In this document: positions 16,943 to 32,814 of the stretch, piece after piece
Layout of the letters: the number at the start of each line of letters is the position of its first letter
Position numbering within the stretch: the stretch's first letter is position 1
Assembly: GCA_029860045.1 (NCBI GenBank)
Contig: JAOUBY010000003.1
Location: 65 to 64,064 of the forward strand
Source: Gammaproteobacteria bacterium
GTDB lineage: Bacteria > Pseudomonadota > Gammaproteobacteria > UBA9214
Length of the DNA: 64,000 nucleotides
Reading direction: 5' to 3'
Notes under the pieces: generated by a model
The model's input: the letters and a program-made list of their open reading frames with translations, nothing else
Databases searched by the model: none
What the model was told of the DNA's origin: nothing
Position numbers and translations under genes: made by a program

Positions 16943-16995
16943 GTCTGGTGAAGGGGCAGGCAGGCTGCCCCTGTCTAGCGGGTTTCCCGGTCGGT

Positions 16996-18977: not shown

Positions 18978-20261
18978 TTACGCCTTCAGGGTGGTGGTCC
19001 GGCGGCGGCGGACGCCGTTCAGGCCCATGAGACCCATGCCCATGCCCAGCAGGGCGATCGTACCCGGCTCCGGAACCCGCGTGATGCGGAAGGCCTGGTT
19101 GGCATCGGTCTGGAAGATGACATCTTCGCCAGTTAATGGCAAGAAGCACTCCTCCACAGTTCCGCCAGCAACTAGGCAATCATTGAAAGCCTGATTGGTG
19201 GCAGGATCGCCACCATTAAGAAAGTCCTGGGCGGTGAGCACTGTGCCATCAGTCAGAACGATGGTGTCCAGGTCGGCGAAGGTAATTTCCCCTTCCTGCA
19301 GGCAGACCAGGTCGGCACTGCTTGCGCCCGCCGTGTTGTCATAGCAGAACGACGGATTGGTCTCGTTGAAGGGAATCACGTTCTCGGTGCTGAACGTCGT
19401 ATCAAAGAATATCGAAGCAAGCAGATCCTTGAAGAAGGCAAAATCCTGGAAGGCCACTTCCGCCTCGAGGTCGGTGGCGCCCTCACCAGTCACGGTGAAA
19501 GTGATGTCACCGGCCGCTGGCTCGCCTGCCCAGTTGTCGACGCCAAAGGAGTCCAGCAGGGCTGGGTCTAAGATCTGATCGCCGGTGGTGAACAACCCGT
19601 TCCCGTCCAAGTCGACAAAGGTGTACTGAGTGCTCGTAAAATTACCCGAGATATCACCCAGCTGCGAGGAGCTCATGATCAACTGCCCATCGTCAAAGCC
19701 GGTTCCACTCAGGATGTCGGACTTTTGACCTGAGGCATCCCCCAGGTCGTCGTAGTAGAGCTCGAAGAAGATATCCTCCGAAGCGAGGGAGAACGTCTGA
19801 GTGCCTCCAATTTCATATATATCGTTACCGCTACCATCCGTCCCAATAAGAGTGCTGCTGAATGAGGCATCCGTAACCAATTCTGTGCCACCGAAGACAT
19901 AGGTCCATTCCCACAAATTGTTGATGCCAAGGGGGCTACTCGGGTTGCCACCTGCATCGGCATAGCCCTGCAATGCGGCTTGGCTATAGACTTCGAAGCT
20001 GCAATTGGTACCATTCAGGGTGGGGCCAGAAGCACCACAATCACCGCCGCTTGTAATAAAGTCTTCACCGGCCGTCATGGAACCTATCGTCAGGCTGGAC
20101 CCCACCGCCCAGTCAAGGGAGCCGACCTCTTCGTTACCAGTCAGACCGTCGCTACCGGTGAAGTCGATCGTGACTGTATCGGTGGGTTCACCTAACGCCA
20201 GCGCGGAGGTGCTCGCGAGGGCCATTGATACTCCCACGGCCACAAAGGAAATTTTATTCAT
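18978..20261 (-). CDS. PEP-CTERM domain protein (exosortase substrate), secreted
   Basis: Signal peptide MNKISFVAVGVSMALASTSALA. The C-terminus RVPEPGTIALLGMGMGLMGLNGVRRRR is a textbook PEP-CTERM signal (VPEP, TM helix, Arg cluster). AAGGAG RBS. Confidence 0.9.
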   Translation of the reverse strand: MNKISFVAVGVSMALASTSALALGEPTDTVTIDFTGSDGLTGNEEVGSLDWAVGSSLTIGSMTAGEDFITSGGDCGASGPTLNGTNCSFEVYSQAALQGYADAGGNPSSPLGINNLWEWTYVFGGTELVTDASFSSTLIGTDGSGNDIYEIGGTQTFSLASEDIFFELYYDDLGDASGQKSDILSGTGFDDGQLIMSSSQLGDISGNFTSTQYTFVDLDGNGLFTTGDQILDPALLDSFGVDNWAGEPAAGDITFTVTGEGATDLEAEVAFQDFAFFKDLLASIFFDTTFSTENVIPFNETNPSFCYDNTAGASSADLVCLQEGEITFADLDTIVLTDGTVLTAQDFLNGGDPATNQAFNDCLVAGGTVEECFLPLTGEDVIFQTDANQAFRITRVPEPGTIALLGMGMGLMGLNGVRRRRTTTLKA

Positions 20262-20340: not shown

Positions 20341-20357
20341 AAGCACGACTCGTGCCA
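20341..20357 (-). promoter_or_regulatory. sigma54 (RpoN) -24/-12 promoter for the PEP-CTERM protein gene
   Basis: Minus-strand TGGCACGagtcGTGCTT: 7/7 match to TGGCACG, canonical GG-N10-GC spacing, -12 GTGCT vs TTGCW. About 85-100 nt upstream of the ATG at 20261; a sigma54 activator (prsR) is encoded in the locus. Confidence 0.6.
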
Positions 20358-21041: not shown

Positions 21042-21755
21042 ATGAATCGCACCCCGGGCCGTGAGTATTTCCTCTTCGATACGCTGTTCAACCTGGTAGA
21101 ACTCGGCCTCTATGCCCTGAGCCTCGCGGGGCCGGTGGCACTGCTCTGGGAACTGCGGGGGGCGGGCTTGCCGTGGCTGGTGCTGCTGGCCGTACTCCTG
21201 TGGCCGTTGGCGGGTGTTGTTTTCGGCGCCCTGCTGGTGATTCTTGCGCGGGCGCTGGTCTGGCGATGGCCCCGCGGACGGATGCTGCTGACCAGCCGCC
21301 GGGCCATCGCCTGGTTCGTGCTCGACCGGTTCATGAAGATGATGTATCGGAGCCCGTTTCGCGTGCTACTGGAGGCGAACAACCTGCTGCGCCTGCTGTT
21401 CTACCGGGGCATGGGTGCTGGGCTGGACTGGACCTTCATGGCAGGTCAGGGCGTCAAACTCACCGAACCCTGGCTGGTCAGGCTGGGGCGTAATGTGCTT
21501 TTGGGCGATGGTGCCCACCTTGCCGCCCACAAGGTCGAGGGCAATGTCGTGACGCTGGATGAAATCGAGATCGGTGATGGCACGGTCATTGGCGCCGGGG
21601 CCATTATCTTTCCCGGATGCCGTATAGGCAACAACGTGACGGTGGGCGCCAGGTCGACGGTGAGTCGGGGGACGGTGATACCGGATGGAGAAACCTGGGT
21701 CGGCATCCCGGCGCGGAAACTCGACTACTTCTCTCGTTCTAAATCGCAGGGGTAG
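21042..21755 (+). CDS. Membrane-anchored hexapeptide-repeat (left-handed beta-helix) acyl/acetyltransferase
   Basis: N-terminal hydrophobic helices (LAGPVALLWEL...LVLLAVLLWPLAGVVFGALLVILA) and C-terminal LbH repeats (LGDGAHLAAH...IGDGTVIGAGAIIFPGCRIGNNVTVGARSTV). Start chosen at ATG 21042 with a GGAGGGA RBS; the track start 20958 is a TTG. Confidence 0.7.
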   Translation: MNRTPGREYFLFDTLFNLVELGLYALSLAGPVALLWELRGAGLPWLVLLAVLLWPLAGVVFGALLVILARALVWRWPRGRMLLTSRRAIAWFVLDRFMKMMYRSPFRVLLEANNLLRLLFYRGMGAGLDWTFMAGQGVKLTEPWLVRLGRNVLLGDGAHLAAHKVEGNVVTLDEIEIGDGTVIGAGAIIFPGCRIGNNVTVGARSTVSRGTVIPDGETWVGIPARKLDYFSRSKSQG

Positions 21756-22015: not shown

Positions 22016-23239
22016 ATGTCAATGATTGTTCTGGCGCTGCGCAATCTGTTTCGGCATTGGAAACGGACGGCCATTGCCCTGGCCGCCATTGGTTTTGGCG
22101 TGATTGCCCTGTTGCTTGCAGGCGGGTTCATCGATTGGATCTTCTGGGGTATGCGGGAGGGGGCTATCCAGTCACGCCTCGGCCATATACAGATCACCCG
22201 CCCCGGCTATTTTGAAACTGGAAGTGCGGATCCTTTTGCGTACCTGCTACCCGATCAGCTAAACGAAGAGGAAATTATCGGGTTGCGGCCCGAGATTCGA
22301 GTAATTACACCACGCTTGGCATTCAACGGCCTGATCAGCCATGGCGATGTCACGATTGGATTTTCCGGCGAAGGTGTGGATCCCGAAAAAGAGGCATCCG
22401 TCAGTCAGCATTTAATCATCACAAAGGGTGAGAACCTTGGCCCGGATGATCCGACAGGCCTGTTGCTGGGTGCCGGGTTGGCTGACAACCTTGGTGTAAC
22501 CGTGGGGGATAGTGTGGTCCTGCTGGCGAATACGGCATCCGGCGGGTTAAGTGGTGTTGAAGGGCCGGTGCGTGGCTTGTTCCAGAGTGCATCGAAGGCA
22601 TTTGATGACGCCGCGTTGCGGGTGCCGGTTGATACTGCCAGAAGCCTGTTGCGGGTCTCCAGTGCCCATAGCTGGGTACTGTTACTGGATGAAACCGAAA
22701 AAACAGATGAGGTTCTGCTGTATCTGCAGGAACGCTTCCCGGTATCGGAAAGCGGTTTGCAGTTCACTCCCTGGTACGCACTGGCCGATTTCTATAACAA
22801 GACAGTTGCCTTGCTCTCCCGGCAAATGAGCGTGGTCCAGCTGATCATCGCCCTCATTATTGTACTCAGTATCTCCAATACCCTGGTGATGAGCGTGCTT
22901 GAAAGAACCGGCGAGACGGGGACGTTGATGGCCATCGGAGTCAGGCGTCGAAGAATATTGCATATGTTTGTTACTGAAGGTCTGTTATTGGGAGTGATAG
23001 GTGGTTTGGGTGGGGTTGCCGTGGGAGGCTTGTTGGCCATGGTCATATCAGCTGTCGGCATCCCGATGCCACCCCCGCCCGGTATGGATGTGGGCTTTAG
23101 CGGGAAGATCCTGCTTAGTTGGCCACTGATTGCCGGAGTGATGGCGCTTGCCATTGGAACAACATTATTGGCGAGCCTCTACCCGGCCTGGAAGGCTTCG
23201 CGCCTGGAGATTGTAAATGCGTTGCGCCATAACCGATAA
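22016..23239 (+). CDS. ABC transporter permease, FtsX/LolC/LolE (MacB-type) family
   Basis: MSMIVLALRNLFRHWKRTAIALAAIGFGVIALLLAGGF N-terminal TM, a large periplasmic domain and three C-terminal TM helices: LolC/E topology. Confidence 0.85.
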   Translation: MSMIVLALRNLFRHWKRTAIALAAIGFGVIALLLAGGFIDWIFWGMREGAIQSRLGHIQITRPGYFETGSADPFAYLLPDQLNEEEIIGLRPEIRVITPRLAFNGLISHGDVTIGFSGEGVDPEKEASVSQHLIITKGENLGPDDPTGLLLGAGLADNLGVTVGDSVVLLANTASGGLSGVEGPVRGLFQSASKAFDDAALRVPVDTARSLLRVSSAHSWVLLLDETEKTDEVLLYLQERFPVSESGLQFTPWYALADFYNKTVALLSRQMSVVQLIIALIIVLSISNTLVMSVLERTGETGTLMAIGVRRRRILHMFVTEGLLLGVIGGLGGVAVGGLLAMVISAVGIPMPPPPGMDVGFSGKILLSWPLIAGVMALAIGTTLLASLYPAWKASRLEIVNALRHNR

Positions 23240-23298
23240 ATCTAACTACGGGACGACATTATGATTTCAGTCCATATTATGAGTGTCAGTTAATTACC

Positions 23299-24510
23299 AT
23301 GTTTCTGCTGGCATTCCGCAGTATTTTCCGTCACAAGGTAAGAACCGGTTTGACCCTTGCCGCTATTATCTTCGGTGTGGGCAGCCTGGTTCTCATCGGC
23401 GGTTTTGTTGAGGACATTTTTATTCAGTTGCAAGAGGCAACAGTTCATTCGCAGCTCGGCCACATTCAGGTCTATCGTTCAGGTTATACAAAGCTGGGGC
23501 GACGCAACCCTTACGGGTATCTGATTGATAAGCCGGAGCAGATATTGGAGTCTGCCGCTGATTTACCCCAGGTGTCAGATCAACTCCTGCGGGTGAAATT
23601 CGCAGGTCTGGCGAATAATGGTCGTGCGGACCTGCCAGTGATAGGGGAAGCTGTCCAGCCTGACAAGGAGGCGCGACTCGGAAGCGCGATGACTATCACC
23701 AGTGGCAGGCAGCTTACCGGTAATGACCCCCACGGTATTCTTGTCGGTCAGGGGGTGGCGGATGCCTTGCAACTCGAGCCGGGTGATTATCTTACCTTGC
23801 TTGTCAACACAACCGACGGTGTACTTAATAGTCATGAGTTCGAGGTGATTGGTATATTCCGGACTTTTGCCCGTGATTATGACAACCGTGCTGTTCGCAT
23901 TTCACTGGTTTCCGGACAGGACCTGATTGGGACCAGTGGAGTGCACAGCGTCGTGCTGTCACTTGACACCACTGAAGCCACGGACTCTGTGGCAAGGGCC
24001 CTGCAACAACAACTCACCCCGCAGGACTATGAAGTAAGAACATGGTATGAGCTTTCCGATTTTTACGGCAAGACAGTTAATCTTTACCGCAGGCAATTTA
24101 CCGTCCTGCAGCTCATCATCCTGTTGATGGTCCTGTTAACCGTGGCAAACAGCGTGAACATGGCGATCTACGAGCGTATCGGGGAATTTGGCACCCTGAA
24201 GGCCCTGGGCGACAGGCAGCGGGATATCTTCCGGCAGGTCATGAAGGAAAATATGCTGCTGGGTCTGCTTGGTGCGGGTTTGGGAGTGGCTATCGGTGTC
24301 GCACTGGCATGGGCGATATCCGGGGTCGGGATAGACATGCCGCCACCGCCGAATTCCGATGTGGGTTATACCGCCTACATTCGCCTGGTTCCCGGGGTGA
24401 TTGCTATGGCCTTCGGGGTTGGCGTTATTGCGACGGTGTGTGCTGCACTGTTACCCGCCTGGCGTGTCTCGCGACTGCCCGTGGCCGAGGCCTTGCGGGA
24501 GAATGTGTGA
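23299..24510 (+). CDS. Second FtsX/LolC/LolE-type ABC permease (tandem paralog)
   Basis: Same architecture as the previous gene (MFLLAFRSIFRHKVRTGLTLAAIIFGVGSLVLIGGF...). Confidence 0.85.
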   Translation: MFLLAFRSIFRHKVRTGLTLAAIIFGVGSLVLIGGFVEDIFIQLQEATVHSQLGHIQVYRSGYTKLGRRNPYGYLIDKPEQILESAADLPQVSDQLLRVKFAGLANNGRADLPVIGEAVQPDKEARLGSAMTITSGRQLTGNDPHGILVGQGVADALQLEPGDYLTLLVNTTDGVLNSHEFEVIGIFRTFARDYDNRAVRISLVSGQDLIGTSGVHSVVLSLDTTEATDSVARALQQQLTPQDYEVRTWYELSDFYGKTVNLYRRQFTVLQLIILLMVLLTVANSVNMAIYERIGEFGTLKALGDRQRDIFRQVMKENMLLGLLGAGLGVAIGVALAWAISGVGIDMPPPPNSDVGYTAYIRLVPGVIAMAFGVGVIATVCAALLPAWRVSRLPVAEALRENV

Positions 24511-24523
24511 GGTCCGAAGGGCG

Positions 24524-25378
24524 CTATCTCGCTAGTTTTTTCAGATAATTCTTGGTAAAGGTCTTGTCCGGCAGCTTGCGCAAGCGCATGCCGCTGTAGT
24601 CCATGACGGAACGGCCTTCCTTGTGCAGGGCATCTTCCATAATGAGTTGGGTCGGACGTATCGTGTTGCCAAAATTCTGGTAGGCCCGGAAGTGGCAGGT
24701 TTTTATCAGCCGGTTGGACAGGGTAAAAAACTCAGCCTTGAAGGGTCTGTAATTGGCCTGATTGACCCAGTAAAGCACGCGGTGGTATGTCACACCTCTG
24801 CGCGACGCCTTCAGTTCGAGTAAGTAATAGTTTTCTTTTCCGATAGTCTCGGTACGCAGCAGGGTGGGTTCATAGTCGCCGGTAAAGTTGGCACGCGCGA
24901 GGTCGCCATTGGCCACTTCGCCGGTGAGCTTTTGTGACAGGGGCAGGCGTACCGGCTGGGACAGGTTGGGGAGGAATGCCCACAGGTCATGATCGCGCAT
25001 GAGTAGAATGGTGCCCTTGTCGATGGCGGGCGCCGTGGTCATCAACAGGGTTCTGTCATTGCCTTTGGACAGTACCCGGTATTGCTTGACCTCGGGGTCG
25101 CGATCGGGCCCGGTGGTGGTGACCTTGATATCGACCTGGAACCCTTCTGCGGGGAAGCGGATCCGGTCCGCCTTTTCCACGATCTGTTGCGGGGTGAACT
25201 TTGCTGCTTTGGCCGCAAATACATGTGATGTCTGCCCGGATAAATTCCAGCACAATACAATTAACACGGCGGCTGCAATCCGCCCGTATCCTGGTAAAGA
25301 GCCTGGCTTGCCAGGCGTAGAGTGTGATTTTCCTGTCACTGTGGGTATCCGTAAAATGGTCAGGCTTGTGTTGCGCAA
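24524..25378 (-). CDS. LolA-like periplasmic outer-membrane lipoprotein-sorting/carrier family protein; start uncertain
   Basis: Signal segment IAAAVLIVLCWNLSGQTSHVFA and a soluble beta-rich domain resembling LolA-like lipoprotein-sorting proteins that commonly sit beside FtsX permease pairs. Convergent with the permease genes. Confidence 0.6.
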   Translation of the reverse strand: MRNTSLTILRIPTVTGKSHSTPGKPGSLPGYGRIAAAVLIVLCWNLSGQTSHVFAAKAAKFTPQQIVEKADRIRFPAEGFQVDIKVTTTGPDRDPEVKQYRVLSKGNDRTLLMTTAPAIDKGTILLMRDHDLWAFLPNLSQPVRLPLSQKLTGEVANGDLARANFTGDYEPTLLRTETIGKENYYLLELKASRRGVTYHRVLYWVNQANYRPFKAEFFTLSNRLIKTCHFRAYQNFGNTIRPTQLIMEDALHKEGRSVMDYSGMRLRKLPDKTFTKNYLKKLAR

Positions 25379-25804
25379 TAGTATACCTATAGTCCTTTCT
25401 GCCAGAATAAAGTTTCACGCAGAAAGCTGTTCCATTACGACCATCAGAAGACCGACATAATTTTGACCACACCGGAACGCGCTGTGGCCAAGAGAACCGG
25501 TATCCCTTCCTGCGGCTTTTATTGCTTGGTTGTGCGTGTCCCATTGCGCGGCACGGATATTTTATTAGCTTGAAGTTACAGCTGCCCGGGATGGGTATTC
25601 GCCTGCTGGCGTGAAGGTTGGGGTAATATAGCTTCCGGTGTGAATACGGGCATATTTTCATCCATTACACATCTGTTCCGGATGCCAATTATGTGTATTA
25701 TGCTGGACCTCACAGTTACATCTTCCCAAACAGGTTTTAATCAACACAAGTTATTTCAGTATGCATACTGCAGGTGAATCTATCAGTGCATTCAAAGGGC
25801 GACG

Positions 25805-26485
25805 ATGCTGAGTGACTTCCTGGTAAGTGTTAAGAAGGTCTCCAAGGAATATGCCTTCGGCAAACAGAAAGTACAGGCGCTCAGGGAGGTCTCCCTGGCC
25901 GTGCTCGGTGGCGAGTTTCTGGCGATTGCAGGGCCCTCCGGCAGCGGTAAGTCGACCCTTCTGAATCTGATCGGCTGTATTGATACGCCAACAACCGGCT
26001 CTATTTCTATAGAGAATCAGGAAACCGTTAACCAGACGCCCGACCAGTTGGCAGACCTGCGTGCCCGAAAAATCGGCTTCATATTCCAGACGTTCAATCT
26101 GTTACCGGTACTTTCCGCGTTTGAAAACGTGGAATACCCGCTGCTTCGCCTTAAACTGGACAAGACAGAACGGCATCAGCGCGTGTCTCAATATCTTGAA
26201 CTCGTCGGGGTGAACGAGTTTGCAACACACCGGCCTAACCAGCTAAGTGGCGGTCAGCGACAGAGAGTCGCCATAGCCAGGGCATTGATTGCCCAACCCA
26301 GTATTGTCCTGGCCGACGAACCAACGGCCAACCTCGATCACAGGACGGGCGAGGGTATCCTCGACCTGATGTCGCGTATCAACCGGGACAATGGCACGAC
26401 CTTTATCTTTTCCACACATGACGCCCGGGTGATCGAGATGGCCGGCCGGGTGGTCAGGCTAAGCGATGGTGAAATTGTTCAGTAA
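25805..26485 (+). CDS. ABC transporter ATP-binding protein (LolD/MacB-type ATPase)
   Basis: Walker A GPSGSGKST, ABC signature LSGGQRQRVAIARAL, Walker B ILLADEPT; 226 aa. Confidence 0.9.
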   Translation: MLSDFLVSVKKVSKEYAFGKQKVQALREVSLAVLGGEFLAIAGPSGSGKSTLLNLIGCIDTPTTGSISIENQETVNQTPDQLADLRARKIGFIFQTFNLLPVLSAFENVEYPLLRLKLDKTERHQRVSQYLELVGVNEFATHRPNQLSGGQRQRVAIARALIAQPSIVLADEPTANLDHRTGEGILDLMSRINRDNGTTFIFSTHDARVIEMAGRVVRLSDGEIVQ

Positions 26486-26599: not shown

Positions 26600-28579
26600 T
26601 CATTCCTGCCAAAGCAGTTTTTCGAACGGTTTTCTGATAGAGCGCGCTGTCGGGTCGCGACCCGCGCCGATTCTGCCCATGAAGACGGCGTGTTCAACCT
26701 TTTCCGGTAATACCAGTTGTGCAAGCCGGTCGGCCAGTTTCCCTGCCAGTTCCTGACTGTGTTTATTTTCCGAAAACGCCACATTATCCCGTGTGTAGCC
26801 ACTGAATATCAGCGGTGTCATTTCCGGCTGGAGTTTCAGGCCATGCAGGGTGGCCGTCAGCCAGAAACGTTGCACGGCGCGGCCGGCTGCTACAAAGTCA
26901 TCCAGGGTTTCCGCTGGGCGGGATGCCATGATTATAAAATGTGACGCGCATGCGATTCCGGGAATGAAGTCCAGTTCCACGCGCGGAATGAGTGTTCCGC
27001 CCATGAAGCGATTGAGGAAGTCCACGCGCCGCCAGCTGACCATGGCCCAGCGCATCAGCTGCAAGGTCATGGGATCCAGCCCTACCGCCCTGGCGGGAAC
27101 CCGGTCTTCACTGTGCCTGGAATCCCACTGGATGATGGACCTGTGTGTTTCAAAGGCTTCAGGAAGGGTAAGGCGCAGGCCACCATTCTGGAATAGCAGT
27201 CGCGCCATACGCAAACGGTCGCGGAAATCATTGAACCATACAATGCGATATTCACTGCCAACGGCCGTCTCCAGCTGTTCTCGAACGCTGGCAGTAACCG
27301 GCCGGGTTGATAGCGGCCGCCGTTGTACAGTGCGCTCGCTGATAAAGGGCAGCAAGGGATCTTTCTGGATATTCGGGTCAGCAAGGAATGCGACATCGAA
27401 GGTCGGACTGGTCGCAGGCAGTCCCGGGCGTGCCCGGAACTCGGCGTACAGGCCATGGTGACTGGCCGCGATGCTGATGGTTTCAAGCAGCGTGCCCAGT
27501 GCGAGCTGGCTGGCATGGCCCCTCAGGTCGTAGACGCAGTGCTCGCGCGTATCGTGGCCGTGAATAACCGCATGGTGCGGGTCGATAATTTCAAACCGCC
27601 ACGGCTGGCTGTTGTCTCCGCTGGGGGCCCAGCGGGCATGATCCAGTATTTGCCGGGCCACGCTGTTACTGGCTCCGGCTGCTTTGCCCCCGTCAGGGGG
27701 CGGGGCAGATGTTAATTTCTGGCTGAATCTGCGTCTTGCCAGCATGAGGCCAAGTTGTTGCAGCGGGTTTCGATTCCCTCCCGGGCGCCAGGTTGTAACC
27801 AGTTGGTTACGGTAGGCGTCGAAATGAAGGCCGTGTGGTGCGGCAATGACCTTGCCGCGTCCAAGCAGTATTTTCAGTGCCTGGGTGGCCGCAATGCCGG
27901 AGCACAGCTCGCAGGCCATTGGAGTTGATGGCCCCCGGTGTTCGGCAAGCCTGACTGCTGTCGGGTCAACCAGGTAGCGACCCTGCAGCATGGCAGGAGA
28001 AAGGCCGAGCAGGAACCGCAGCAACTGTTCTTCCTCGTCATGGCCATCAAGTTGAAAGTATTCCTCGAACGTCATGCTGCCGGGCAGAAAATTCAATAAC
28101 GCGGCGCCCATGCCAAGCGGTGCAGCGGTAACCGCCGGAACACCCAGCCGGCTGCAGGAATCGAACGCAGCACGTCGTGCCTCAAGGGCAAAAAAATCCA
28201 GACCGTCGATGTACAGGTCAATACCCGTCAGAAAATCATCTGCATTGCCCTGATCAATCCCGTCGGGGAATATTCTCAGGTCAAGCTCCGGGTTGATGTC
28301 CAGCGCACGTTCTGCAAGGGCATCGGTCTTCTTTCTTTCGAGGGTGGAGAGGGCGGCTCCTGCCTGGCGGTTGAAATTCGCGATCTCGAAGGAGTCGAAG
28401 TCAGCCAGTGTGAAGGCGCCGATCCCGAGACGTGTCAGGGTCAGCAGGTGACTGCCCCCGACGCCGCCGAGTCCTGCAATGGCGACACGTTTGGTGCGCA
28501 GTGTGGCTTGCTCTGATGATGTGACCCAGCCGATGTTGCGTGAGAATGCGGCTGTATAGTCGAATTGGCCTGTCGACAT
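26600..28579 (-). CDS. Fusion protein: N-terminal ThiF/MoeB E1-like adenylyltransferase domain plus C-terminal nitroreductase-superfamily (SagB/McbC-like) domain
   Basis: N-terminus RVAIAGLGGVGGSHLLTLTRLGIGAFTLADFDSFEIANFNRQ (E1 Rossmann GxGxxG plus NxxRQ). C-terminal half ARQILDHARWAPSGDNSQPWRF is nitroreductase signature. ATG at 28579 preferred over the TTG at 28600. Confidence 0.8.
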   Translation of the reverse strand: MSTGQFDYTAAFSRNIGWVTSSEQATLRTKRVAIAGLGGVGGSHLLTLTRLGIGAFTLADFDSFEIANFNRQAGAALSTLERKKTDALAERALDINPELDLRIFPDGIDQGNADDFLTGIDLYIDGLDFFALEARRAAFDSCSRLGVPAVTAAPLGMGAALLNFLPGSMTFEEYFQLDGHDEEEQLLRFLLGLSPAMLQGRYLVDPTAVRLAEHRGPSTPMACELCSGIAATQALKILLGRGKVIAAPHGLHFDAYRNQLVTTWRPGGNRNPLQQLGLMLARRRFSQKLTSAPPPDGGKAAGASNSVARQILDHARWAPSGDNSQPWRFEIIDPHHAVIHGHDTREHCVYDLRGHASQLALGTLLETISIAASHHGLYAEFRARPGLPATSPTFDVAFLADPNIQKDPLLPFISERTVQRRPLSTRPVTASVREQLETAVGSEYRIVWFNDFRDRLRMARLLFQNGGLRLTLPEAFETHRSIIQWDSRHSEDRVPARAVGLDPMTLQLMRWAMVSWRRVDFLNRFMGGTLIPRVELDFIPGIACASHFIIMASRPAETLDDFVAAGRAVQRFWLTATLHGLKLQPEMTPLIFSGYTRDNVAFSENKHSQELAGKLADRLAQLVLPEKVEHAVFMGRIGAGRDPTARSIRKPFEKLLWQE

Positions 28580-28848
28580 TAACCTGTTTCCGGGTTGCAA
28601 ATACCAATTTACGACATTGAATTCAGCATGGAAGCAGTTGCTGATCGATTCTGGCGCCCGACATGATTTCTACCAGGCAAAGTTCTGTGGCGCTAATAGT
28701 ATGTTGTGTCAGGTGGTGTGTCTAATGCTATTAAGAGGACTGACCTGGCGACGTCCTTCTGGCGTGACCATGCATTGACCTGTTTAATCGATGCCGGCTT
28801 TTCATGCCTGACCTGAAAGGCGGTTTCAGATGCCGGTATAACGTCAAT

Positions 28849-28864
28849 TGTGACGCTTGTCACA
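28849..28864. promoter_or_regulatory. Perfect CRP/FNR-type palindrome TGTGA-N6-TCACA in a divergent intergenic region
   Basis: TGTGACGCTTGTCACA: both half-sites match the CRP core exactly with 6-nt spacing. It lies between the E1-nitroreductase gene (minus) and acyltransferase gene 1 (plus), about 190 nt from the latter. Confidence 0.45.
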
Positions 28865-29055
28865 GATTAAGGGAGCGCAAGGCAGCTCAGTTGTGGTGTT
28901 GTTCTCAATACAATCAATGTCCTGCCGATAGGATGTTTATTGTTATCCAAGGTTCGCATGTGATGTGTTTGGGTGAGTTCATGGAGAACCTGAGCCTGCC
29001 GACTGAGATGTTCCGGTTACCATCCATAGTGAGTCGTCGTTGAAGAGACGAAAAT

Positions 29056-29829
29056 ATGAGTGATTTGTGTGATTTATTTTTTCAGTACTTTGATGTCATT
29101 CTGGACGATCAGCCGGGTGTTATAGACGAAGCCACCAGACTTCGCTACCAGGTGTATTGCATAGAAAATGATTTTGAGGATGCGTCCCGGTTTGATGATG
29201 ACAGGGAAGTGGATGAGTATGACCGGCGTTCTGTTCACAGTGTTGTCAGGCACAGGAAGCTGGGAGTAACCGCAGCCTCTGTCAGGCTGGTCCTGTCAGA
29301 CCAGGAATGTCCTGAAGCGCTTTTCCCGATCGAGGAGAACTGTGCTGCATCCCTAAAGGCCTGTCCTTCAATCTTTCGTGGTATCCCGCGCAATGCCATA
29401 GCTGAAATATCACGCTTTGCCGTTTCCAAGGATTTCAAGCGCCGGCATGGCGAGGCCGGCAACCCTGCCGGTGTCGGTCCAGACCCGGACCGGTATCTAA
29501 CGCCTGATTTAAACAGGCGGAGAGTCATTCCCCACCTGATCCTGGGTTTATTTGCCGCGATAGTAAAAATGAGTGCAGAGCATCATGTTACCCACTGGTA
29601 TGCCGTGATGGATGTTTCTCTGCTGCGCCTGTTGACCCGCTTTGGTATCAACTTCATGCCCATGGGAGGGCAGGTGGATTACCATGGATTGCGGCAACCC
29701 TGCTTTGGCAGTGTGGACGAGGTGCTGGCCGGGATATGGGAGAAACGCCCGGATATCTGGCGCTTGATCACTGCTGACGGGGTCGTATGGCCAGCCCCGG
29801 CAGATCATGCCGTGAGTGCCGGTGGATAG
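29056..29829 (+). CDS. GNAT-fold N-acyl amino acid synthase/autoinducer-synthase-like acyltransferase (PEP-CTERM/exosortase-associated acyltransferase family), copy 1
   Basis: 257 aa; the RLRYQVYCIENDFED N-terminal block and overall length match FeeM/NasY-type N-acyl amino acid synthases and the exosortase-associated acyltransferase family (TIGR03694-like, from memory). Confidence 0.7.
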   Translation: MSDLCDLFFQYFDVILDDQPGVIDEATRLRYQVYCIENDFEDASRFDDDREVDEYDRRSVHSVVRHRKLGVTAASVRLVLSDQECPEALFPIEENCAASLKACPSIFRGIPRNAIAEISRFAVSKDFKRRHGEAGNPAGVGPDPDRYLTPDLNRRRVIPHLILGLFAAIVKMSAEHHVTHWYAVMDVSLLRLLTRFGINFMPMGGQVDYHGLRQPCFGSVDEVLAGIWEKRPDIWRLITADGVVWPAPADHAVSAGG

Positions 29830-30096
29830 TGTTGGGTGGTAGAACGCTGCGGGTGATTTGATCGATTCGCTTTACCGGTTAGCCAACATAGTCTTCAATC
29901 TGTCCCTCCGGCTTTCCTGTCGCTAGCTAGTGACATTGAAATACCAATAAAAACAGATAGGTATATAAATTATATTAAATGCTGTCGTCACCCGGCGACA
30001 GTTCTGCCGAGCAGAGTGTTGTATTGCCCCGGTTTTACCCTGTGGGCTACCCCATTGATTTTTTAACTCACTGTAATTACTGATTAATAGTGTCTC

Positions 30097-30112
30097 TGGC
30101 ACGATTATCGCA
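30097..30112 (+). promoter_or_regulatory. sigma54 (RpoN) -24/-12 promoter for acyltransferase copy 2
   Basis: TGGCACGattaTCGCA: 7/7 -24 element, canonical GG-N10-GC spacing, -12 TCGCA vs TTGCW. About 100 nt upstream of the ATG at 30215. Confidence 0.6.
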
Positions 30113-30214
30113 TTTCCCATGCGTAATTTAGCTTCATGACATGGAAACAGGCCACTGGGCCGCCGTGTCCATGAGCGAACCGCAAACTACTTTTCCCGGG
30201 TTGATGACAAGCAC

Positions 30215-30970
30215 ATGAGCGAACTCTATAACACGTTTCATAGCCATTTCGACGTGGTCTCGGCGGATACCGTCGGCCTGATGGAGACGGCCTTCAGGAT
30301 GCGTTACCAGGTCTATTGCCTGGAGAGGTCATACGAAGATGCAGAGTCCTTTCCGGACCAAATGGAGATTGACGAGTTCGATATGCACTCGGCCCACAGC
30401 CTGGTGAGGTGCCAGCGATCCGGGCAGTATGCTGGCCTGGTCAGGCTGGTCCTGCCAAATCCGGTAGATATGGACAAGCCGTTACCACTGGAGAAATTCT
30501 GCCACTCTGCCATGCAGAAAGCGGGTATTGATTTATCTTCCATTCCCCGGGACCGCATGGCTGAAATCTCGAGATTTTCGATTTCAAAGGAACTAAAGCG
30601 TCAGTGTGCGCAGAAGTCTGCTGTTTCAGCCACCGGTGATGTTGTTGATGGCGTGGATACCCGGATGACGCCACAAATAGTACTCGGTCTGTTTGCGGGG
30701 GTCGTTCGAATGAGTGCCCAGAACAATATTACTCACTGGTTGGCTGTTATGGAGCCAACCTTGCTCAGGTTCCTTTCACGCTATGGCATCTACTTCCAGA
30801 AGATCGGGCCGGTGATTGACTATCATGGCCGGCGGCAACCGACGGTTGCGAGCATCGATTCAGTATTGTCAGGGATTTATGCCCATCGTAAGGATGTCTG
30901 GGAAGTGATTACTGATTTTGGAAATGTCTGGCCGTTGGATAAGGAAGTCAAACATTTTGCAATGCCGTAG
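30215..30970 (+). CDS. GNAT-fold N-acyl amino acid synthase-like acyltransferase, copy 2 (tandem paralog)
   Basis: 251 aa; alignable to copy 1 throughout (FRMRYQVYCLERSYEDAESFPD...MAEISRFSISKELKR...THWLAVMEPTLLRFLSRYGI). Confidence 0.7.
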   Translation: MSELYNTFHSHFDVVSADTVGLMETAFRMRYQVYCLERSYEDAESFPDQMEIDEFDMHSAHSLVRCQRSGQYAGLVRLVLPNPVDMDKPLPLEKFCHSAMQKAGIDLSSIPRDRMAEISRFSISKELKRQCAQKSAVSATGDVVDGVDTRMTPQIVLGLFAGVVRMSAQNNITHWLAVMEPTLLRFLSRYGIYFQKIGPVIDYHGRRQPTVASIDSVLSGIYAHRKDVWEVITDFGNVWPLDKEVKHFAMP

Positions 30971-31107
30971 CTGGCTACCAGCTCGGCATCCATGCCTTCC
31001 GCGACACTTGCACATCCATGTTATCGCCCATGTAGTCGTCGCAATGACAGGTGAATCAGGGCTTCCTTAGGTAGTATTCCGAGACGGGGGCTCGTGCCTG
31101 CGTCTGC

Positions 31108-32814
31108 TCAGAACGTATAGCGCACGTTGCCATAGACCCTGTCGCTGTCATCGAAACGTCCAAACAGACCGGACGAATTTCCGCCAAATATATCGGCGCC
31201 GACTGCCAGCCACCAGTTATCCGACATCTCCCAGGTCACCTTGGGTCTCGCCATCCAGTCGCTGCGATTCAGGCCGGTTACCAGCAGCAGTTCCGCATCT
31301 ACCCGGTTGGCAATTTCCTTGCTGACGTACAGGCTGACACCGGTTTCCAGTTCATCGAAGAGAATGTCCGAGTCGTGGTCCGTATACCAGCGCTGGAATA
31401 GCTGAACATTCAGCAATGTGCCATTGGTATATGAGTGTTCGAGGCCTACTACATAATCGAGTGTGTCCTGTTGTGTTGCGCCATCCGGGTCGAGAGGGTT
31501 GTCTACAGTAAACCAGCGATCACGTGTATAGACAGCCTCGCCCTTCAGCAGGATGTTGCCAAAATCCTTTGCCACGGTGGCGCCAAGCTGGTGAATCCTG
31601 TCATGCCTGGGAGTGATGGTGAGTCGTGTGGTCATGCCTGTCTCAAGGGTGCTGAAAAACGCGGGAGAGGCATCCATGCTGCGGTAATAAAAGCCGGATA
31701 CATCCCAGCCGTGTTTCAGCATGGAAAGCCGCAGGCCAAATGCGCTGTTGGACAGCTTTTGTGACGGTTTAACATCCCCCTCGATAACCAGTTCATCCAC
31801 ACCGGGTGGTAGTTCTGTGCCCAGGGGGTAGAAATCGTCACCAGGCTTGCCGATCTCGTCATAGGTCATGTAGGGGATCCAGATGGCCTCGGTGTGAAAG
31901 TCCCCCTTGAAGTATTCTGCGCGCGCTGCCCATTGCGGGATACGTATGAGGTCAAAATCCTCTGCGACCAACTGGCGCATATCCTTTGCCGAAACGACAT
32001 CGGCAAAGAACAGTCCAACCATCTCGCCCCAGATAATGTGCTGTCTGCCCAGGCGAAACTCCAGGTCACCTGCCGAGATATCCAGGTAGGTCTCGTGTAG
32101 CGCGCCTTCAAGGCGCCGGTTGTCTTCAACACGGTCAGAATAGAAATTATCCAGGTCAAAGACTGCGTCGTAACTGCCGCGGGCGCTGACCTTCCAGGAA
32201 ACATTCTGGTTGATGCGGTCGCTGGCCTGTAGTTCCAGCGTGTTGCGGAACATCGAGGGGTGGGTAGGTGACGAATAGGTGTGGGCGTATTTTGAGTTGA
32301 AAAATCCCCGGAAATTGTATTTGTCGGTCCCTGCCTTGTCGTTGCTTGCCTGGCTCTCATCCGGGGCCGAGAGGAACAGGTCATCAATGCCGGCAGGCTC
32401 ACCTGGCCCGTCCTCTGCCCTGGCGCTACCGGTGTCCTGTCTCGTGGACGCATTGCTGCTGGCCTCGGCTAGCAATACAGGGGTGCCTGACGATGGGCTG
32501 GTCACAAGAAAACCGGGGATGTCCATGGCATCGAGCCGTTTGTGCATATATTCTGCAGTTGCCCGTTCCGGGTAGGGCCCAACCCGGACGCGGGTCAGCG
32601 ATCTTGAGCCTTTATCATTAATAATGGTGGTTGCGGGGAAACCCTGCTGCTCCAGTTTTTCCACAAACTGGGTGGCCTGGCCCTGGTCCCTGAAGGCGCC
32701 AACCTGGACGGTGTAATCGGCGCGGGAGATGATCTGGAACTGCATCATGCCGAGAGTTGCGAGGGCTGTGATGATCCAGTGTCGGGTTCGATTTAGTCGT
32801 GTCGATTTATTCAT
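31108..32814 (-). CDS. Outer-membrane beta-barrel protein with N-terminal SPOR (peptidoglycan-binding) domain
   Basis: After the signal peptide, YTVQVGAFRDQGQATQFVEKLEQQGFPATT...RVRVGPYPERATAE is a SPOR domain. It is followed by about 400 aa with alternating amphipathic strands ending in the C-terminal Phe motif ...NVRYTF typical of OM barrels. Confidence 0.7.
   Translation of the reverse strand: MNKSTRLNRTRHWIITALATLGMMQFQIISRADYTVQVGAFRDQGQATQFVEKLEQQGFPATTIINDKGSRSLTRVRVGPYPERATAEYMHKRLDAMDIPGFLVTSPSSGTPVLLAEASSNASTRQDTGSARAEDGPGEPAGIDDLFLSAPDESQASNDKAGTDKYNFRGFFNSKYAHTYSSPTHPSMFRNTLELQASDRINQNVSWKVSARGSYDAVFDLDNFYSDRVEDNRRLEGALHETYLDISAGDLEFRLGRQHIIWGEMVGLFFADVVSAKDMRQLVAEDFDLIRIPQWAARAEYFKGDFHTEAIWIPYMTYDEIGKPGDDFYPLGTELPPGVDELVIEGDVKPSQKLSNSAFGLRLSMLKHGWDVSGFYYRSMDASPAFFSTLETGMTTRLTITPRHDRIHQLGATVAKDFGNILLKGEAVYTRDRWFTVDNPLDPDGATQQDTLDYVVGLEHSYTNGTLLNVQLFQRWYTDHDSDILFDELETGVSLYVSKEIANRVDAELLLVTGLNRSDWMARPKVTWEMSDNWWLAVGADIFGGNSSGLFGRFDDSDRVYGNVRYTF

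What the first reader, a model, noticed from the sequence alone, without database searches (positions are those of the whole stretch)
29056..30970. Tandem duplicated FeeM/autoinducer-synthase-like acyltransferases
Two adjacent 250-aa paralogs share the RYQVYC(I/L)E N-terminal block typical of N-acyl amino acid synthases (acyl-ACP-dependent GNAT fold), a family previously noted to co-occur with PEP-CTERM/exosortase systems. Tandem duplication with diverged middle regions suggests two different acyl or amino-acid specificities. Products of such enzymes are bioactive lipo-amino acids in other systems.
Basis: partly seen in the sequence, partly recalled or inferred. Interest (0 to 1): 0.6.

Follow-up and report, generated by a model that had tools for sequence, protein, structure and literature searches.

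The report
Twin lipo-amino-acid synthases feeding oxazolone pathway
Two neighbouring genes encode related enzymes that attach a fatty acid to an amino acid, and next to them sits an enzyme known to turn such products into oxazolone lipids; the whole set lies inside a large slime- and surface-protein-export gene cluster, so the genes belong to a known family but their setting hints at what these poorly understood lipids are for.

Summary
ORFs 29056-29829 (257 aa) and 30215-30970 (251 aa) are same-strand paralogues, 43% identical (E 1e-74). Both score far above the cut-off of TIGR03694, the PEP-CTERM/exosortase-associated acyltransferase. Both keep every family-invariant residue and are under purifying selection (dN/dS about 0.1). 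The window is a complete XrtA/PEP-CTERM exopolysaccharide locus.

It is a ThiF-nitroreductase di-domain protein, 62% identical to the Candidatus Tenderia electrophaga protein that de Rond et al. list as OxzB-like. OxzB is the oxazolone synthetase that cyclises and desaturates N-acyl amino acids made by an OxzA acyltransferase. A ThiF-type partner lies near TIGR03694 genes in 31 of 49 adequately flanked genomic loci. In Desulfovibrio (Nitratidesulfovibrio) vulgaris pDV1, a FeeM-ThiF-nitroreductase fusion sits in a PEP-CTERM locus.

The pair is therefore best read as two OxzA-type synthases supplying an acyl-oxazolone pathway. The duplication is old and shared with related uncultured Gammaproteobacteria. 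Only copy B has a conserved sigma-54 promoter-like site, as does the PEP-CTERM protein gene.

This is a new member of a known kind. Interest is modest. The oxazolone/exosortase link appears in none of the papers I could search.

The parts
29056..29829 (+). Copy A: TIGR03694 N-acyl amino acid synthase (OxzA-type), 257 aa, transcribed divergently from the OxzB-like gene
   Evidence: TIGR03694 255 bits, cut-off 112. AF2 model pLDDT 85 with LuxI/FeeM-like fold. Orthologues at 68-81% identity in L002-L006. dN/dS 0.09-0.11.
30215..30970 (+). Copy B: TIGR03694 N-acyl amino acid synthase (OxzA-type), 251 aa, an old paralogue of A
   Evidence: TIGR03694 268 bits. Pfam FeeM 35 bits and Autoind_synth 27.8 bits, both above threshold. 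Forms its own orthologue clade with L034 and L003-L007. dN/dS 0.06-0.12. Keeps all 33 invariant family residues.
30097..30112 (+). Sigma-54 type -24/-12 promoter-like element TGGCACGATTATCGCA, 118 nt upstream of copy B
   Evidence: Matches 11 of 12 specified consensus positions. An equivalent element lies 108-127 nt upstream of the B orthologue in L003, L004, L005, L006 and L034. None is found upstream of A.
30042..30065 (+). Terminator-like hairpin with T-run (GTGGGCTACCCCAT + TGATTTTTTA) between the stop of A and the promoter of B
   Evidence: Consensus scan. This is a pattern match only. It is consistent with A and B being separate transcription units.
26600..28600 (-). OxzB-like oxazolone synthetase: N-terminal ThiF/E1-like adenylating cyclase fused to a C-terminal nitroreductase-fold flavin oxidase. 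The public annotation calls 26600-28579 (659 aa).
   Evidence: Pfam ThiF 130 bits plus Nitroreductase. NF006077/PRK08223 438 bits. Rv1355c (TrzS) family 192 bits over both domains. 62% identity at full length to Ca. Tenderia electrophaga P0157, which is UniProt A0A0S2TIG7 in de Rond et al. Table S1 of OxzB-like proteins. The closest solved ThiF-type structure is TcdA, the t6A cyclodehydratase.
28601..29055 (.). 455-bp divergent intergenic region between the OxzB-like gene and copy A
   Evidence: Read directly. No sigma-54 site and no Rfam match. The 79-aa ORF at 28804-29043 is not called in the public annotation and has no support.
18978..20261 (-). PEP-CTERM sorting-signal protein (context). 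It has the only other strong intergenic sigma-54-like site in the window, at 20342-20357.
   Evidence: PEP-CTERM domain TIGR02595. C-terminus VPEPGTIALLGMGMGLMGLNGVRRRR. Site TGGCACGAGTCGTGCT lies 96 nt upstream.
5210..8679 (+). PrsK histidine kinase and PrsR sigma-54-dependent response regulator (context; candidate regulators of copy B)
   Evidence: TIGR02916 774 bits and TIGR02915 696 bits. Regulation of B by PrsR is inferred, not shown.
22016..26485 (.). LolC/E-like permeases (x2), LolA-like periplasmic protein (24524-25378, minus strand) and ABC ATPase: a candidate lipid export route (context)
   Evidence: Homologues lie beside the synthase/OxzB genes in about 10-20 related loci. The export role is inferred.
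31108..32814 (-). SPOR-DUF1302 outer-membrane protein, convergent with copy B (context)
   Evidence: Pfam SPOR 58 bits and DUF1302 61 bits. Homologue present in 17 related loci.
14399..15688 (+). GT1/EryCIII-like (macrolide-type) glycosyltransferase that recurs with oxzB in other genomes (context)
   Evidence: It sits in an apparent operon with oxzB in Ca. Tenderia (L087) and in L086, and is present in L015, L035, L065 and L081.
43927..45513 (+). Exosortase A (XrtA) with EpsI domain, the defining gene of the surrounding system (context)
   Evidence: TIGR03109 308 bits, cut-off 208.

Best explanation
The two genes encode paralogous N-acyl amino acid synthases of the exosortase-associated family TIGR03694. 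These are LuxI/FeeM-like GNAT enzymes. Each transfers a fatty acyl group from acyl-CoA or acyl-ACP to the alpha-amino group of an amino acid. The amino acid is probably aromatic.

Together with the divergently transcribed ThiF-nitroreductase gene they form an oxzB / oxzA1-oxzA2 module. [quoted passage not shown] The flavin domain desaturates the C-alpha-C-beta bond. The product is a 2-alkyl-4-arylidene-oxazol-5-one (tyrazolone/phenazolone-type acyl-oxazolone) or its ring-opened N-acyl-dehydroamino acid.

The module is an integral part of an XrtA/PEP-CTERM exopolysaccharide locus. The duplication is ancient and both copies are kept functional. Copy B has its own sigma-54 promoter-like site, like the PEP-CTERM protein gene, and is probably switched on by PrsK/PrsR. 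Copy A is expressed separately.

What is shown here: family membership, fold, conservation, gene linkage and the promoter motif. What is inferred: substrates, product, regulation, and any export through the neighbouring Lol-like/DUF1302 genes.
For: Identity of the two genes:
- TIGR03694 scores are 255 and 268 bits against a cut-off of 112.
- The fold matches LasI, TofI, RpaI, BjaI and FeeM.
- The LuxI-type catalytic pattern is invariant in 44 sequences including B: R30, E51, D53, D56, R77 and E117-x-S119-R120.
- dN/dS is 0.06-0.12 for both copies.

The partner gene:
- The 666-aa protein is ThiF plus nitroreductase.
- It is 62% identical over 99% of its length to the Tenderia protein that de Rond et al. 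list as OxzB-like with oxzA 'immediately upstream, opposite strand'.
- In the complete Tenderia genome that oxzB faces the same A-type and B-type pair.

Biochemistry of the known system:
- OxzA plus OxzB make tyrazolones and phenazolones in E. coli and in vitro, and the reaction needs ATP.
- TyzACB and TrzAS in mycobacteria do the same.

Gene linkage:
- A ThiF-type partner lies within 10 kb in 31 of 49 TIGR03694 loci with at least 3 kb on both flanks. It is fused to the oxidase in 16, split from it in 7, and ThiF alone in 8.
- It is divergent in Gammaproteobacteria and sits on the same strand just downstream in Alphaproteobacteria.
- The acyltransferases beside oxzB in Emcibacter, Nitrococcus and alphaproteobacterial loci are TIGR03694 members.
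- D. vulgaris pDV1 has a natural FeeM-ThiF-nitroreductase fusion of 989 aa between an XrtA glycosyltransferase, a TPR protein and PEP-CTERM proteins.

Regulation:
- A sigma-54-like site is conserved upstream of B orthologues in six genomes.
- The only other strong intergenic site in the window precedes the PEP-CTERM gene.
- PrsR is a sigma-54 activator.

Phenotype in a relative: disrupting the homologous 'ExoAT' gene in Methylomonas LW13 abolishes its polysaccharide band.
Against: - No product was measured.
- I could not obtain the sequence of any experimentally validated OxzA (P. rubra, Rheinheimera, Colwellia, Skermanella, Undibacterium). That those enzymes are TIGR03694-type is therefore untested.
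- The acyltransferases next to oxzB in two betaproteobacterial loci and in the D. vulgaris fusion are FeeM-type, not TIGR03694.
- 18 of 49 well-flanked TIGR03694 loci show no ThiF partner within 10 kb, so the family can work without OxzB.
- One OxzB-like gene sampled has no acyltransferase nearby.
- The flavin domain scores below the curated cut-offs of the named NCBIfam models.
- The sigma-54 element is a motif match only, and it is absent in the two Tenderia genomes.
- The amino-acid and acyl specificities of A and B cannot be read from sequence.
Confidence: 0.6

Rival explanations
1. The two enzymes are stand-alone N-acyl amino acid synthases. Their end products are long-chain N-acyl amino acids with two different specificities, acting as surfactants or signals, and the ThiF-nitroreductase neighbour is not involved.
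For: TIGR03694 membership. [quoted passage not shown] 2011, as cited). 18 of 49 well-flanked loci have no ThiF partner. The least conserved segments between A and B lie in the middle of the protein. In mycobacterial systems N-acyl amino acids also accumulate and are released.
Against: The OxzB-like gene is the immediate divergent neighbour here. It is linked across Alpha-, Beta- and Gammaproteobacteria despite rearrangements. A synthase domain is physically fused to ThiF-nitroreductase in D. vulgaris. In every characterised system this pairing makes oxazolones.
Confidence: 0.25
2. The enzymes acylate a macromolecular amine directly, not a free amino acid. The target would be a de-N-acetylated sugar of the exopolysaccharide or the new terminus of an exosortase-processed protein.
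For: The genes lie inside a locus with a polysaccharide deacetylase, a FemAB-family protein and the exosortase. The physiological substrate of TIGR03694 proteins has not been determined in a native host, as far as the papers I could read show.
Against: The fold and the conserved amino-acid-binding motif are those of small-molecule LuxI/FeeM enzymes. The proteins have no signal peptide or membrane segment visible in the sequence. Their conserved partner is a small-molecule N-acyl amino acid cyclase.
Confidence: 0.07
3. They are LuxI-type acyl-homoserine-lactone synthases, producing quorum-sensing signals from SAM.
For: The best PDB sequence matches are the AHL synthases RpaI, BjaI and MesI. Pfam Autoind_synth is just above threshold for B. 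The LuxI N-terminal R...E-x-D-x-x-D pattern is kept.
Against: NCBIfam AHL-synthase model TraI scores 23 bits against a cut-off of 292. Copy A is below the Pfam threshold. The position aligned to the Trp of RpaI's ERGW motif is Phe or Tyr. No LuxR-type receptor appears among the roughly 50 window proteins scanned. The proteins carry a 25-residue insert and a C-terminal extension specific to TIGR03694.
Confidence: 0.03
4. One copy is a decaying or non-catalytic duplicate.
For: Tandem duplicates often lose one copy. Copy A scores lower on the Pfam FeeM and Autoind_synth models.
Against: Both keep all invariant residues. Both have orthologues in six or more genomes. Both show dN/dS of about 0.1.
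Confidence: 0.02

Closest known systems
[quoted passage not shown]
   Same: Both copies match over their full length, well above the curated cut-off. They lie in a genome region with XrtA, PrsK/R/T and PEP-CTERM proteins.
   Different: Nothing at the family level. The points of interest here are the conserved tandem pair and the distinct promoter of copy B.
OxzA/OxzB oxazolone pathway (de Rond, Asay and Moore; bioRxiv 10.1101/2020.06.11.147165, Nat Chem Biol 2021)
   Same: An N-acyltransferase sits next to a ThiF-nitroreductase di-domain enzyme. This is the 'R' arrangement (divergent) listed for Ca. Tenderia, whose OxzB-like protein is 62% identical to the one in the window.
   Different: There are two acyltransferase genes instead of one. 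The module is embedded in an exosortase/exopolysaccharide locus, a context the paper does not mention (0 occurrences of PEP-CTERM or exosortase). Similarity of A and B to the five tested OxzA proteins could not be measured.
TyzACB and TrzAS of Mycobacterium tuberculosis (PMC10404671, PMC12856293)
   Same: The chemistry has the same logic: acyl-CoA-dependent N-acylation, ThiF-type ATP-dependent cyclisation, and desaturation by a nitroreductase-fold flavin oxidase. The window protein matches the Rv1355c (TrzS) family model over both domains.
   Different: The match is below that model's cut-off (192 against 476 bits). The acyltransferases are only fold-level relatives. The genomic context differs, with no exosortase system in the mycobacterial clusters.
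FeeM (PDB 2G0B) and NasY N-acyl tyrosine synthases
   Same: Same GNAT sub-fold (Foldseek E 2e-7). Conserved Glu in the beta-strand motif A-E-I-S-R.
   Different: There is no detectable sequence match to FeeM in PDB searches. The window proteins are about 60 residues longer, with a disordered insert at 132-155 and a conserved C-terminal DYHG-x-RQP...W-x-x-IT segment. FeeM uses acyl-ACP; the donor here is unknown.
LuxI-family acyl-homoserine-lactone synthases (LasI, TofI, RpaI, BjaI)
   Same: These are the best structural and sequence matches in the PDB. They share the N-terminal R-x-R-x-x-[VI]-[YF]...E-x-D-x-[FY]-D block.
   Different: Curated AHL-synthase models are not met. The partner is not a LuxR-type receptor but a cyclase that needs a free alpha-carboxylate.
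Multi-copy NAS clusters of Stieleria (stieleriacines; PMC12479983, PMC7293339)
   Same: Several NAS genes are clustered with ThiF-family and nitroreductase-family genes and a PEP-CTERM protein gene. The products are N-acyl dehydrotyrosines.
   Different: The phylum is different (Planctomycetota). ThiF and nitroreductase are separate genes, and methyltransferases are present.

Membership tests
TIGR03694 PEP-CTERM/exosortase system-associated acyltransferase | Full-length HMM score above the curated cut-off (111.95 bits) | tested here: met
   A scores 255.2 bits (residues 7-244 on profile positions 3-239 of 241). B scores 267.9 bits.
TIGR03694 PEP-CTERM/exosortase system-associated acyltransferase | Occurs in a genome with, and usually near, a PEP-CTERM/exosortase system | tested here: met
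   XrtA, PrsK, PrsR, two PrsT genes, the EPS export/chain-length/kinase genes and a PEP-CTERM protein are all in the window.
LuxI/FeeM-like GNAT acyltransferases | Three-layer alpha/beta/alpha GNAT sub-fold shared by AHL synthases and FeeM | tested here: met
   AF2 model of A has pLDDT 85 and pTM 0.84. Foldseek top hits are LasI, TofI, RpaI, BjaI and FeeM, all with probability 1.00. B was not modelled; it is 43% identical to A.
LuxI/FeeM-like GNAT acyltransferases | Catalytic glutamate on the central strand (FeeM Glu95; Nas354 Glu103, mutation of which abolishes activity) | tested here: inconclusive
   E117 in the A-E-I-S-R-F strand is invariant in 44 sequences including both copies. It matches the E-x-S-R pattern of LuxI enzymes. 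Its equivalence to FeeM Glu95 rests on motif position, not on a residue-level superposition I could inspect (for the literature).
Pfam FeeM (PF21926) / Autoind_synth (PF00765) | Score above the Pfam gathering threshold | tested here: inconclusive
   B: FeeM 35.3 (GA 27) and Autoind_synth 27.8 (GA 24), both met. A: 25.1 and 21.5, neither met. Both copies pass Acetyltransf_5.
OxzAB-type oxazolone biosynthetic module | ThiF-nitroreductase di-domain (OxzB-like) protein | tested here: met
   Pfam ThiF plus Nitroreductase in one 666-aa ORF. 62% identity and 99% coverage to A0A0S2TIG7-equivalent P0157, which is listed in Table S1 of the discovery paper.
OxzAB-type oxazolone biosynthetic module | N-acyltransferase gene adjacent to oxzB | tested here: met
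   Copy A starts 455 bp from the divergent oxzB-like gene and B follows A. This is the 'R' arrangement of Table S1. The same layout is found in the complete Tenderia genome.
OxzAB-type oxazolone biosynthetic module | ThiF domain with an intact nucleotide-binding motif and the conserved aspartate needed for ATP-dependent cyclisation | tested here: met
   G-L-G-G-V-G-G at residues 43-49, and the I-D-G-L-D segment aligned to TcdA V-I-D-A-I-D. The importance of the Asp was shown for TrzS D217. Residue equivalence is by motif.
OxzAB-type oxazolone biosynthetic module | The acyltransferase is homologous to an experimentally validated OxzA | not tested
A homologue search seeded with an alphaproteobacterial neighbour returned no named hit from those species.
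OxzAB-type oxazolone biosynthetic module | Production of acyl-oxazolones | not testable with these tools
   This needs expression and LC-MS/UV.
LuxI-type AHL synthase | Match to a curated AHL-synthase model, and a cognate LuxR-type receptor | tested here: not met
   TraI model scores 23 bits against a cut-off of 292, for B only. No LuxR-type regulator was found among the window proteins scanned.

The most novel reading that the evidence does not exclude
Acyl-oxazolones, or their ring-opened N-acyl-dehydroamino acids, may be a dedicated component of the XrtA/PEP-CTERM exosortase system rather than free-standing secondary metabolites. In this reading they are made under PrsK/PrsR-sigma-54 control together with PEP-CTERM proteins. 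They are then passed to the envelope by the neighbouring Lol-like/DUF1302 or MMPL transporters, possibly after glycosylation by the co-occurring GT1 enzyme. There they would act as one of three things: a lipid anchor, an electrophilic (azlactone) acyl donor for amines of the de-acetylated polysaccharide or of sorted proteins, or the signal sensed by PrsK. This would join two unexplained observations. One is that N-acyl amino acid synthases track exosortase systems. The other is that oxazolone lipids have no known role.
Probability: 0.2. Interest if true: 0.7.

Novelty: new member of a known kind. Interest (0 to 1): 0.35.

Why it matters
The two genes themselves are ordinary members of a curated family and are already named by automatic annotation. 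Their value lies in the context.

The physiological role of bacterial acyl-oxazolones is described as a major unresolved question. The reason N-acyl amino acid synthases follow exosortase systems has been open since 2011.

The comparison made here shows the following:
- About two thirds of well-flanked TIGR03694 loci carry the oxazolone-forming ThiF(-oxidase) partner.
- The linkage extends to a three-domain fusion in a Desulfovibrio PEP-CTERM locus.
- One synthase copy shares a sigma-54 promoter type with a PEP-CTERM protein gene.

None of the held papers on oxazolone biosynthesis mentions exosortase or PEP-CTERM, and none of the exosortase papers mentions the oxazolone pathway.

If the link is functional, it gives a concrete, testable hypothesis for both problems. 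The test is whether loss of oxzA/oxzB changes floc, biofilm or exopolysaccharide phenotypes. Candidate organisms that can be handled include Nitrococcus mobilis, Thiohalobacter, Emcibacter and D. vulgaris Hildenborough.

Tried and rejected
- **Craig et al. 2011** (DOI and PMC id) is not held. I used it only through papers that cite it.
- **Is the 989-aa NCBIfam PRK14852 type a TIGR03694-ThiF-oxidase fusion?** No. It is a fusion, but its N-terminal domain is FeeM-type (PF21926, 150 bits) and not significantly similar to the TIGR03694 profile.
- **Link to a validated OxzA.** I spent the last homologue search on an alphaproteobacterial synthase, hoping for a named Skermanella hit. None appeared.
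- **Rfam** found nothing in 28400-31300.
- **Sigma-70 promoter scan.** It gave fewer hits than the shuffled controls, so nothing could be used for the promoter of A.
- **Sigma-54 scan.** A first version was mis-indexed and returned nothing. It was corrected.
- **Sigma-54 sites elsewhere.** No site precedes copy A or the OxzB-like gene.
- **Clade-discriminating residues between A and B orthologues.** Only 4 strict sites were found: Y11/H11, A74/G74, S188/T182 and A247/L241. This is too few, and unplaced in a pocket, to argue for specificity differences.
- **The 79-aa ORF at 28804-29043** was considered as a possible ThiS-like or peptide substrate of the E1-like enzyme. It was rejected because it has no C-terminal Gly-Gly, is not called in the public annotation and has an odd composition.
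- **Plasmid tblastn** with the OxzB-like protein found no close relative, only the D. vulgaris fusion at 35% identity.
Full report
**1. Observation**

The window holds two same-strand ORFs exactly where stated: 29056-29829 (257 aa, copy A) and 30215-30970 (251 aa, copy B). They are separated by 385 bp. They align over 246 residues at 43% identity, E 1e-74. Both begin MS[DE]L and carry RYQVYC[IL]E at residues 30-37. Identity between them is lowest at residues 81-100 (15%) and 121-160 (20-25%), and is 40-60% elsewhere.

The contig is public: ENA ERZ27296429, a 123-kb contig of a gammaproteobacterial MAG. The same genes are called there, and NCBI already names protein A 'PEP-CTERM/exosortase system-associated acyltransferase'.

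**2. What the two proteins are**

Family assignment:
- Both match NCBIfam TIGR03694 end to end, at 255 and 268 bits against a cut-off of 112.
- In Pfam, both pass Acetyltransf_5.
- Copy B passes FeeM and Autoind_synth narrowly. Copy A falls just short of both.

Structure:
- An AlphaFold2 model of A, built on 44 homologues, is confident (pLDDT 85, pTM 0.84), except for an insert at 132-155.
- Foldseek against the PDB returns the LuxI-type synthases LasI, TofI, RpaI and BjaI (E 6e-10 to 2e-7), and FeeM (E 2e-7).
- By sequence alone the PDB matches are RpaI, BjaI and MesI, not FeeM.
- The N-terminal block is therefore the motif shared across the LuxI/NAS superfamily. It is not specifically a FeeM signature.

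Conservation:
- The pattern R30...E51-x-D53-x-x-D56...R77...E117-x-S119-R120 is invariant in 44 sequences, including B.
- Both copies evolve under purifying selection, with dN/dS 0.06-0.12 against their nearest orthologues.
- Neither copy is decaying.

**3. Surroundings**

The whole window is an XrtA/PEP-CTERM exopolysaccharide locus. It contains:

| Coordinates | Gene or product |
|---|---|
| 3689 | priming glycosyltransferase TIGR03013 |
| 5210 | PrsK |
| 7306 | PrsR |
| 8679 and 11553 | two PrsT paralogues, 30% identical |
| 14399 | GT1 glycosyltransferase |
| 18978-20261 (minus strand) | PEP-CTERM protein |
| 20958 | hexapeptide transferase |
| 22016-26485 | two LolC/E-like permeases, a LolA-like protein and an ABC ATPase |
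| 26600-28600 (minus strand) | ThiF-nitroreductase fusion |
| 29056-30970 | the two synthases |
| 31108-32814 (minus strand) | SPOR-DUF1302 outer-membrane protein |
| 33354 onward | XrtA export, chain-length, kinase, TIGR03016 outer-membrane protein (OMP), ATPase, epimerase, deacetylase, FemAB, stp1 |
| 43927 | XrtA-EpsI |
| after 43927 | stp2, amidotransferase, stp3, O-antigen-ligase-like and further modifying genes |

**4.

The gene divergent from copy A encodes a 666-aa protein. Its N-terminal half is a ThiF/E1-like domain: Pfam ThiF 130 bits, with TcdA (the t6A cyclodehydratase) as the closest solved structure. Its C-terminal half is a nitroreductase-fold domain of the Acg/Rv1355c type.

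This architecture was characterised by de Rond, Asay and Moore as OxzB, an oxazolone synthetase. OxzA N-acylates tyrosine or phenylalanine. OxzB, which depends on ATP, cyclises and oxidises the product to tyrazolones and phenazolones. Most oxzB genes are accompanied by an oxzA acyltransferase.

Their Table S1 of OxzB-like proteins lists Candidatus Tenderia electrophaga A0A0S2TIG7 (682 aa) with 'oxzA immediately upstream, opposite strand'. That protein is my hit P0157, 62% identical to the window protein over 99% of its length.

In the complete Tenderia genome, oxzB faces an A-type synthase (100% identical to P0078) followed by a B-type synthase (44% identical to window B). Next comes the same EPS export gene. 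On the other side oxzB is followed by an MMPL transporter and a GT1 glycosyltransferase.

Mycobacterial TyzACB and TrzAS carry out the same chemistry, with ThiF and oxidase either split or fused. Stieleria clusters combine several NAS genes with ThiF and nitroreductase genes and a PEP-CTERM protein gene.

**5. How general the linkage is**

A pattern scan of one genome per species returned 80 loci encoding relatives. I used an HMM built from the family, together with ORF-level BLAST.

- Among the 49 loci with at least 3 kb on both sides of the synthase, 31 have a ThiF-type partner within 10 kb. It is fused to the oxidase in 16, split into adjacent ThiF and oxidase genes in 7, and ThiF alone in 8.
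- In Gammaproteobacteria the partner is usually divergent, 56-750 bp away.
- In Alphaproteobacteria it lies just downstream on the same strand.
- In Emcibacter a prsT gene sits between the two.
- The acyltransferases in these positions are TIGR03694 members in Emcibacter, Nitrococcus mobilis and the alphaproteobacterial loci. The first two genera are in the published table.

Going the other way, I sampled three OxzB-like proteins from other lineages:
- Two have a FeeM-type acyltransferase immediately upstream, preceded by prsT, with PEP-CTERM protein genes nearby.
- One has no acyltransferase within 6 kb.

The D. vulgaris Hildenborough plasmid pDV1 encodes a 989-aa FeeM-ThiF-nitroreductase fusion. 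It lies between an XrtA-system glycosyltransferase, a TPR protein and three PEP-CTERM proteins. This is a natural fusion of synthase and OxzB, again inside an exosortase locus and in another phylum.

The linkage is strong but not obligatory. 18 of 49 well-flanked loci lack a partner.

**6. The duplication**

A neighbour-joining tree of 95 family members places window A with the first copies of L002-L008, and window B with L034 and the second copies of L003-L007. The duplication therefore predates the divergence of this group of Tenderia-related uncultured Gammaproteobacteria and has been kept since.

Strong second copies also occur in L023, L042, L062 and L074 (tandem), L032 and L039 (convergent) and L078 (divergent). 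These pairs do not fall in the window's A or B clades. Weaker extra homologues occur in about 14 more loci. Multiple synthase genes are thus common in this family, as in Stieleria.

**7. What distinguishes A from B**

Only four positions strictly separate the two orthologue groups. That does not let me argue for different pockets.

Regulation does differ. A sigma-54 type -24/-12 element, TGGCACGATTATCGCA (11 of 12 specified positions), lies 118 nt upstream of B. It is preceded by a terminator-like hairpin with a T-run after A. Equivalent elements lie 108-127 nt upstream of the B orthologues in L003, L004, L005, L006 and L034. By my estimate, a site of this quality is expected by chance in roughly 1% of such upstream regions.

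There is none upstream of A, of the OxzB-like gene, or in the two Tenderia genomes. The only other strong intergenic site in the window precedes the PEP-CTERM protein gene. PrsR, encoded in the window, is a sigma-54-dependent activator. Its control of B is an inference.

**8. Mechanism proposed**

A and B condense a fatty acyl thioester with an amino acid. The donor is unresolved: acyl-CoA in the characterised OxzA, TyzA and TrzA, but acyl-ACP in FeeM.

The ThiF domain of the neighbouring enzyme adenylates the free carboxylate and closes the oxazolone ring. The flavin domain introduces the exocyclic double bond. The order of these two steps varies between systems.

The products are acyl-oxazolones, or N-acyl-dehydroamino acids after hydrolysis. 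Later steps are suggested only by recurrent neighbours:
- GT1 and hexapeptide transferase in Tenderia, L086, L015, L035, L065 and L081;
- Lol-like, LolA-like and DUF1302 genes in 10-17 loci;
- MMPL in Tenderia.

**9. Comparison with what is known, and novelty**

The genes are members of TIGR03694, and the module matches the published oxzAB arrangement. A close relative's OxzB is already listed in that paper. The correct category is a new member of a known kind.

What I did not find in the searchable literature is any statement joining the two bodies of work. No held paper contains both oxazolone-pathway terms and PEP-CTERM or exosortase in a related sense. The discovery paper and both mycobacterial papers never mention the exosortase system.

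A knockout of the homologous gene in Methylomonas LW13 abolishes a polysaccharide band. That is the only phenotype I found linking the family to the matrix.

**10. Verdict**

The fuller reading is a two-synthase oxazolone module inside an exosortase locus. Confidence in that reading is about 0.6. Confidence that the two proteins are TIGR03694 N-acyl amino acid synthases is above 0.95. Interest is modest (0.35). The context-level link is the part worth following up.

Noticed in passing
L088 4062-7031 (NC_005863.1, D. vulgaris Hildenborough plasmid pDV1, DVU_RS16045): A 989-aa protein annotated only as 'ThiF family adenylyltransferase' is a FeeM (PF21926, 150 bits) + ThiF + nitroreductase triple fusion. 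It lies between a TIGR03013 XrtA glycosyltransferase, a TPR protein and three PEP-CTERM proteins. It is the prototype of NCBIfam PRK14852 'hypothetical protein'.
   Followed up: partly
window 8679-11516 and 11553-14399: Two full-length PrsT (XrtA/PEP-CTERM TPR lipoprotein) paralogues in tandem, only 30% identical. This is a second old tandem duplication in the same locus.
   Followed up: partly
window 22016-26485 and 31108-32814: A MacB/LolCE-like ABC exporter (two permeases plus an ATPase) with a LolA-like periplasmic protein and a SPOR-DUF1302 outer-membrane protein flank the synthase/OxzB genes. Homologues recur beside them in 10-17 related loci. This looks like an envelope-spanning lipid or lipoprotein route with unknown cargo.
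   Followed up: partly
window 14399-15688 and 20958-21755; L087 14363-15589; L086 8067-10281: A GT1 (EryCIII/macrolide-type) glycosyltransferase and a hexapeptide-repeat acyltransferase recur with oxzB. In Ca. Tenderia the order is oxzB-MMPL-GT1 on one strand. This hints at glycosylated derivatives of the oxazolone or N-acyl amino acid.
   Followed up: partly
window 20342-20357 (minus strand): A sigma-54-like -24/-12 element, TGGCACGAGTCGTGCT, lies 96 nt upstream of the PEP-CTERM protein gene. A weaker one, TGGCATTATATTTGCG, lies at 3288-3303 (minus strand), 75 nt upstream of ORF 2548-3228.
   Followed up: partly
window 2548-3228 (minus strand): A 226-aa ORF with a Ser/Arg-rich N-terminus and one hydrophobic segment matches no family in NCBIfam or Pfam. 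It sits between the locus's upstream genes and the priming glycosyltransferase.
   Followed up: no
window 16885-17853 (+) and 16996-18792 (-): Two long overlapping ORFs on opposite strands, neither with any family match. Which one is the gene is unresolved. Weak homologues of the minus-strand ORF occur in L015 and L065.
   Followed up: no
window 15752-16729: A protein with only the catalytic domain of 2-oxoacid dehydrogenase E2 acyltransferases (PF00198, 88 bits). No family match covers its N-terminal part. It is an orphan acyltransferase inside the EPS locus.
   Followed up: no
window 52246-61779: The distal part of the locus carries a PaaK/F390-synthetase-like ligase, a squalene-hopene-cyclase/GH127-like protein, a formyltransferase-like protein, a YejM/sulfatase-like membrane protein and a DltB-type MBOAT. 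This is a set of polymer-modifying genes not part of the standard XrtA list.
   Followed up: no
window 12001-14000 versus 56001-60000: G+C content ranges from 66% (second prsT) to 48% (O-antigen-ligase-like/YejM-like region), against a window average near 55%. This suggests a mosaic origin for parts of the locus.
   Followed up: no
L010 9477-10139, L012 3615-4277, L045, L047, L036, L053, L054, L057: Many related loci carry a second, much more divergent homologue next to the main synthase (60-125 bits on my family HMM). The one in L012 still passes the TIGR03694 cut-off at 136 bits. There may be a distinct short subfamily.
   Followed up: partly
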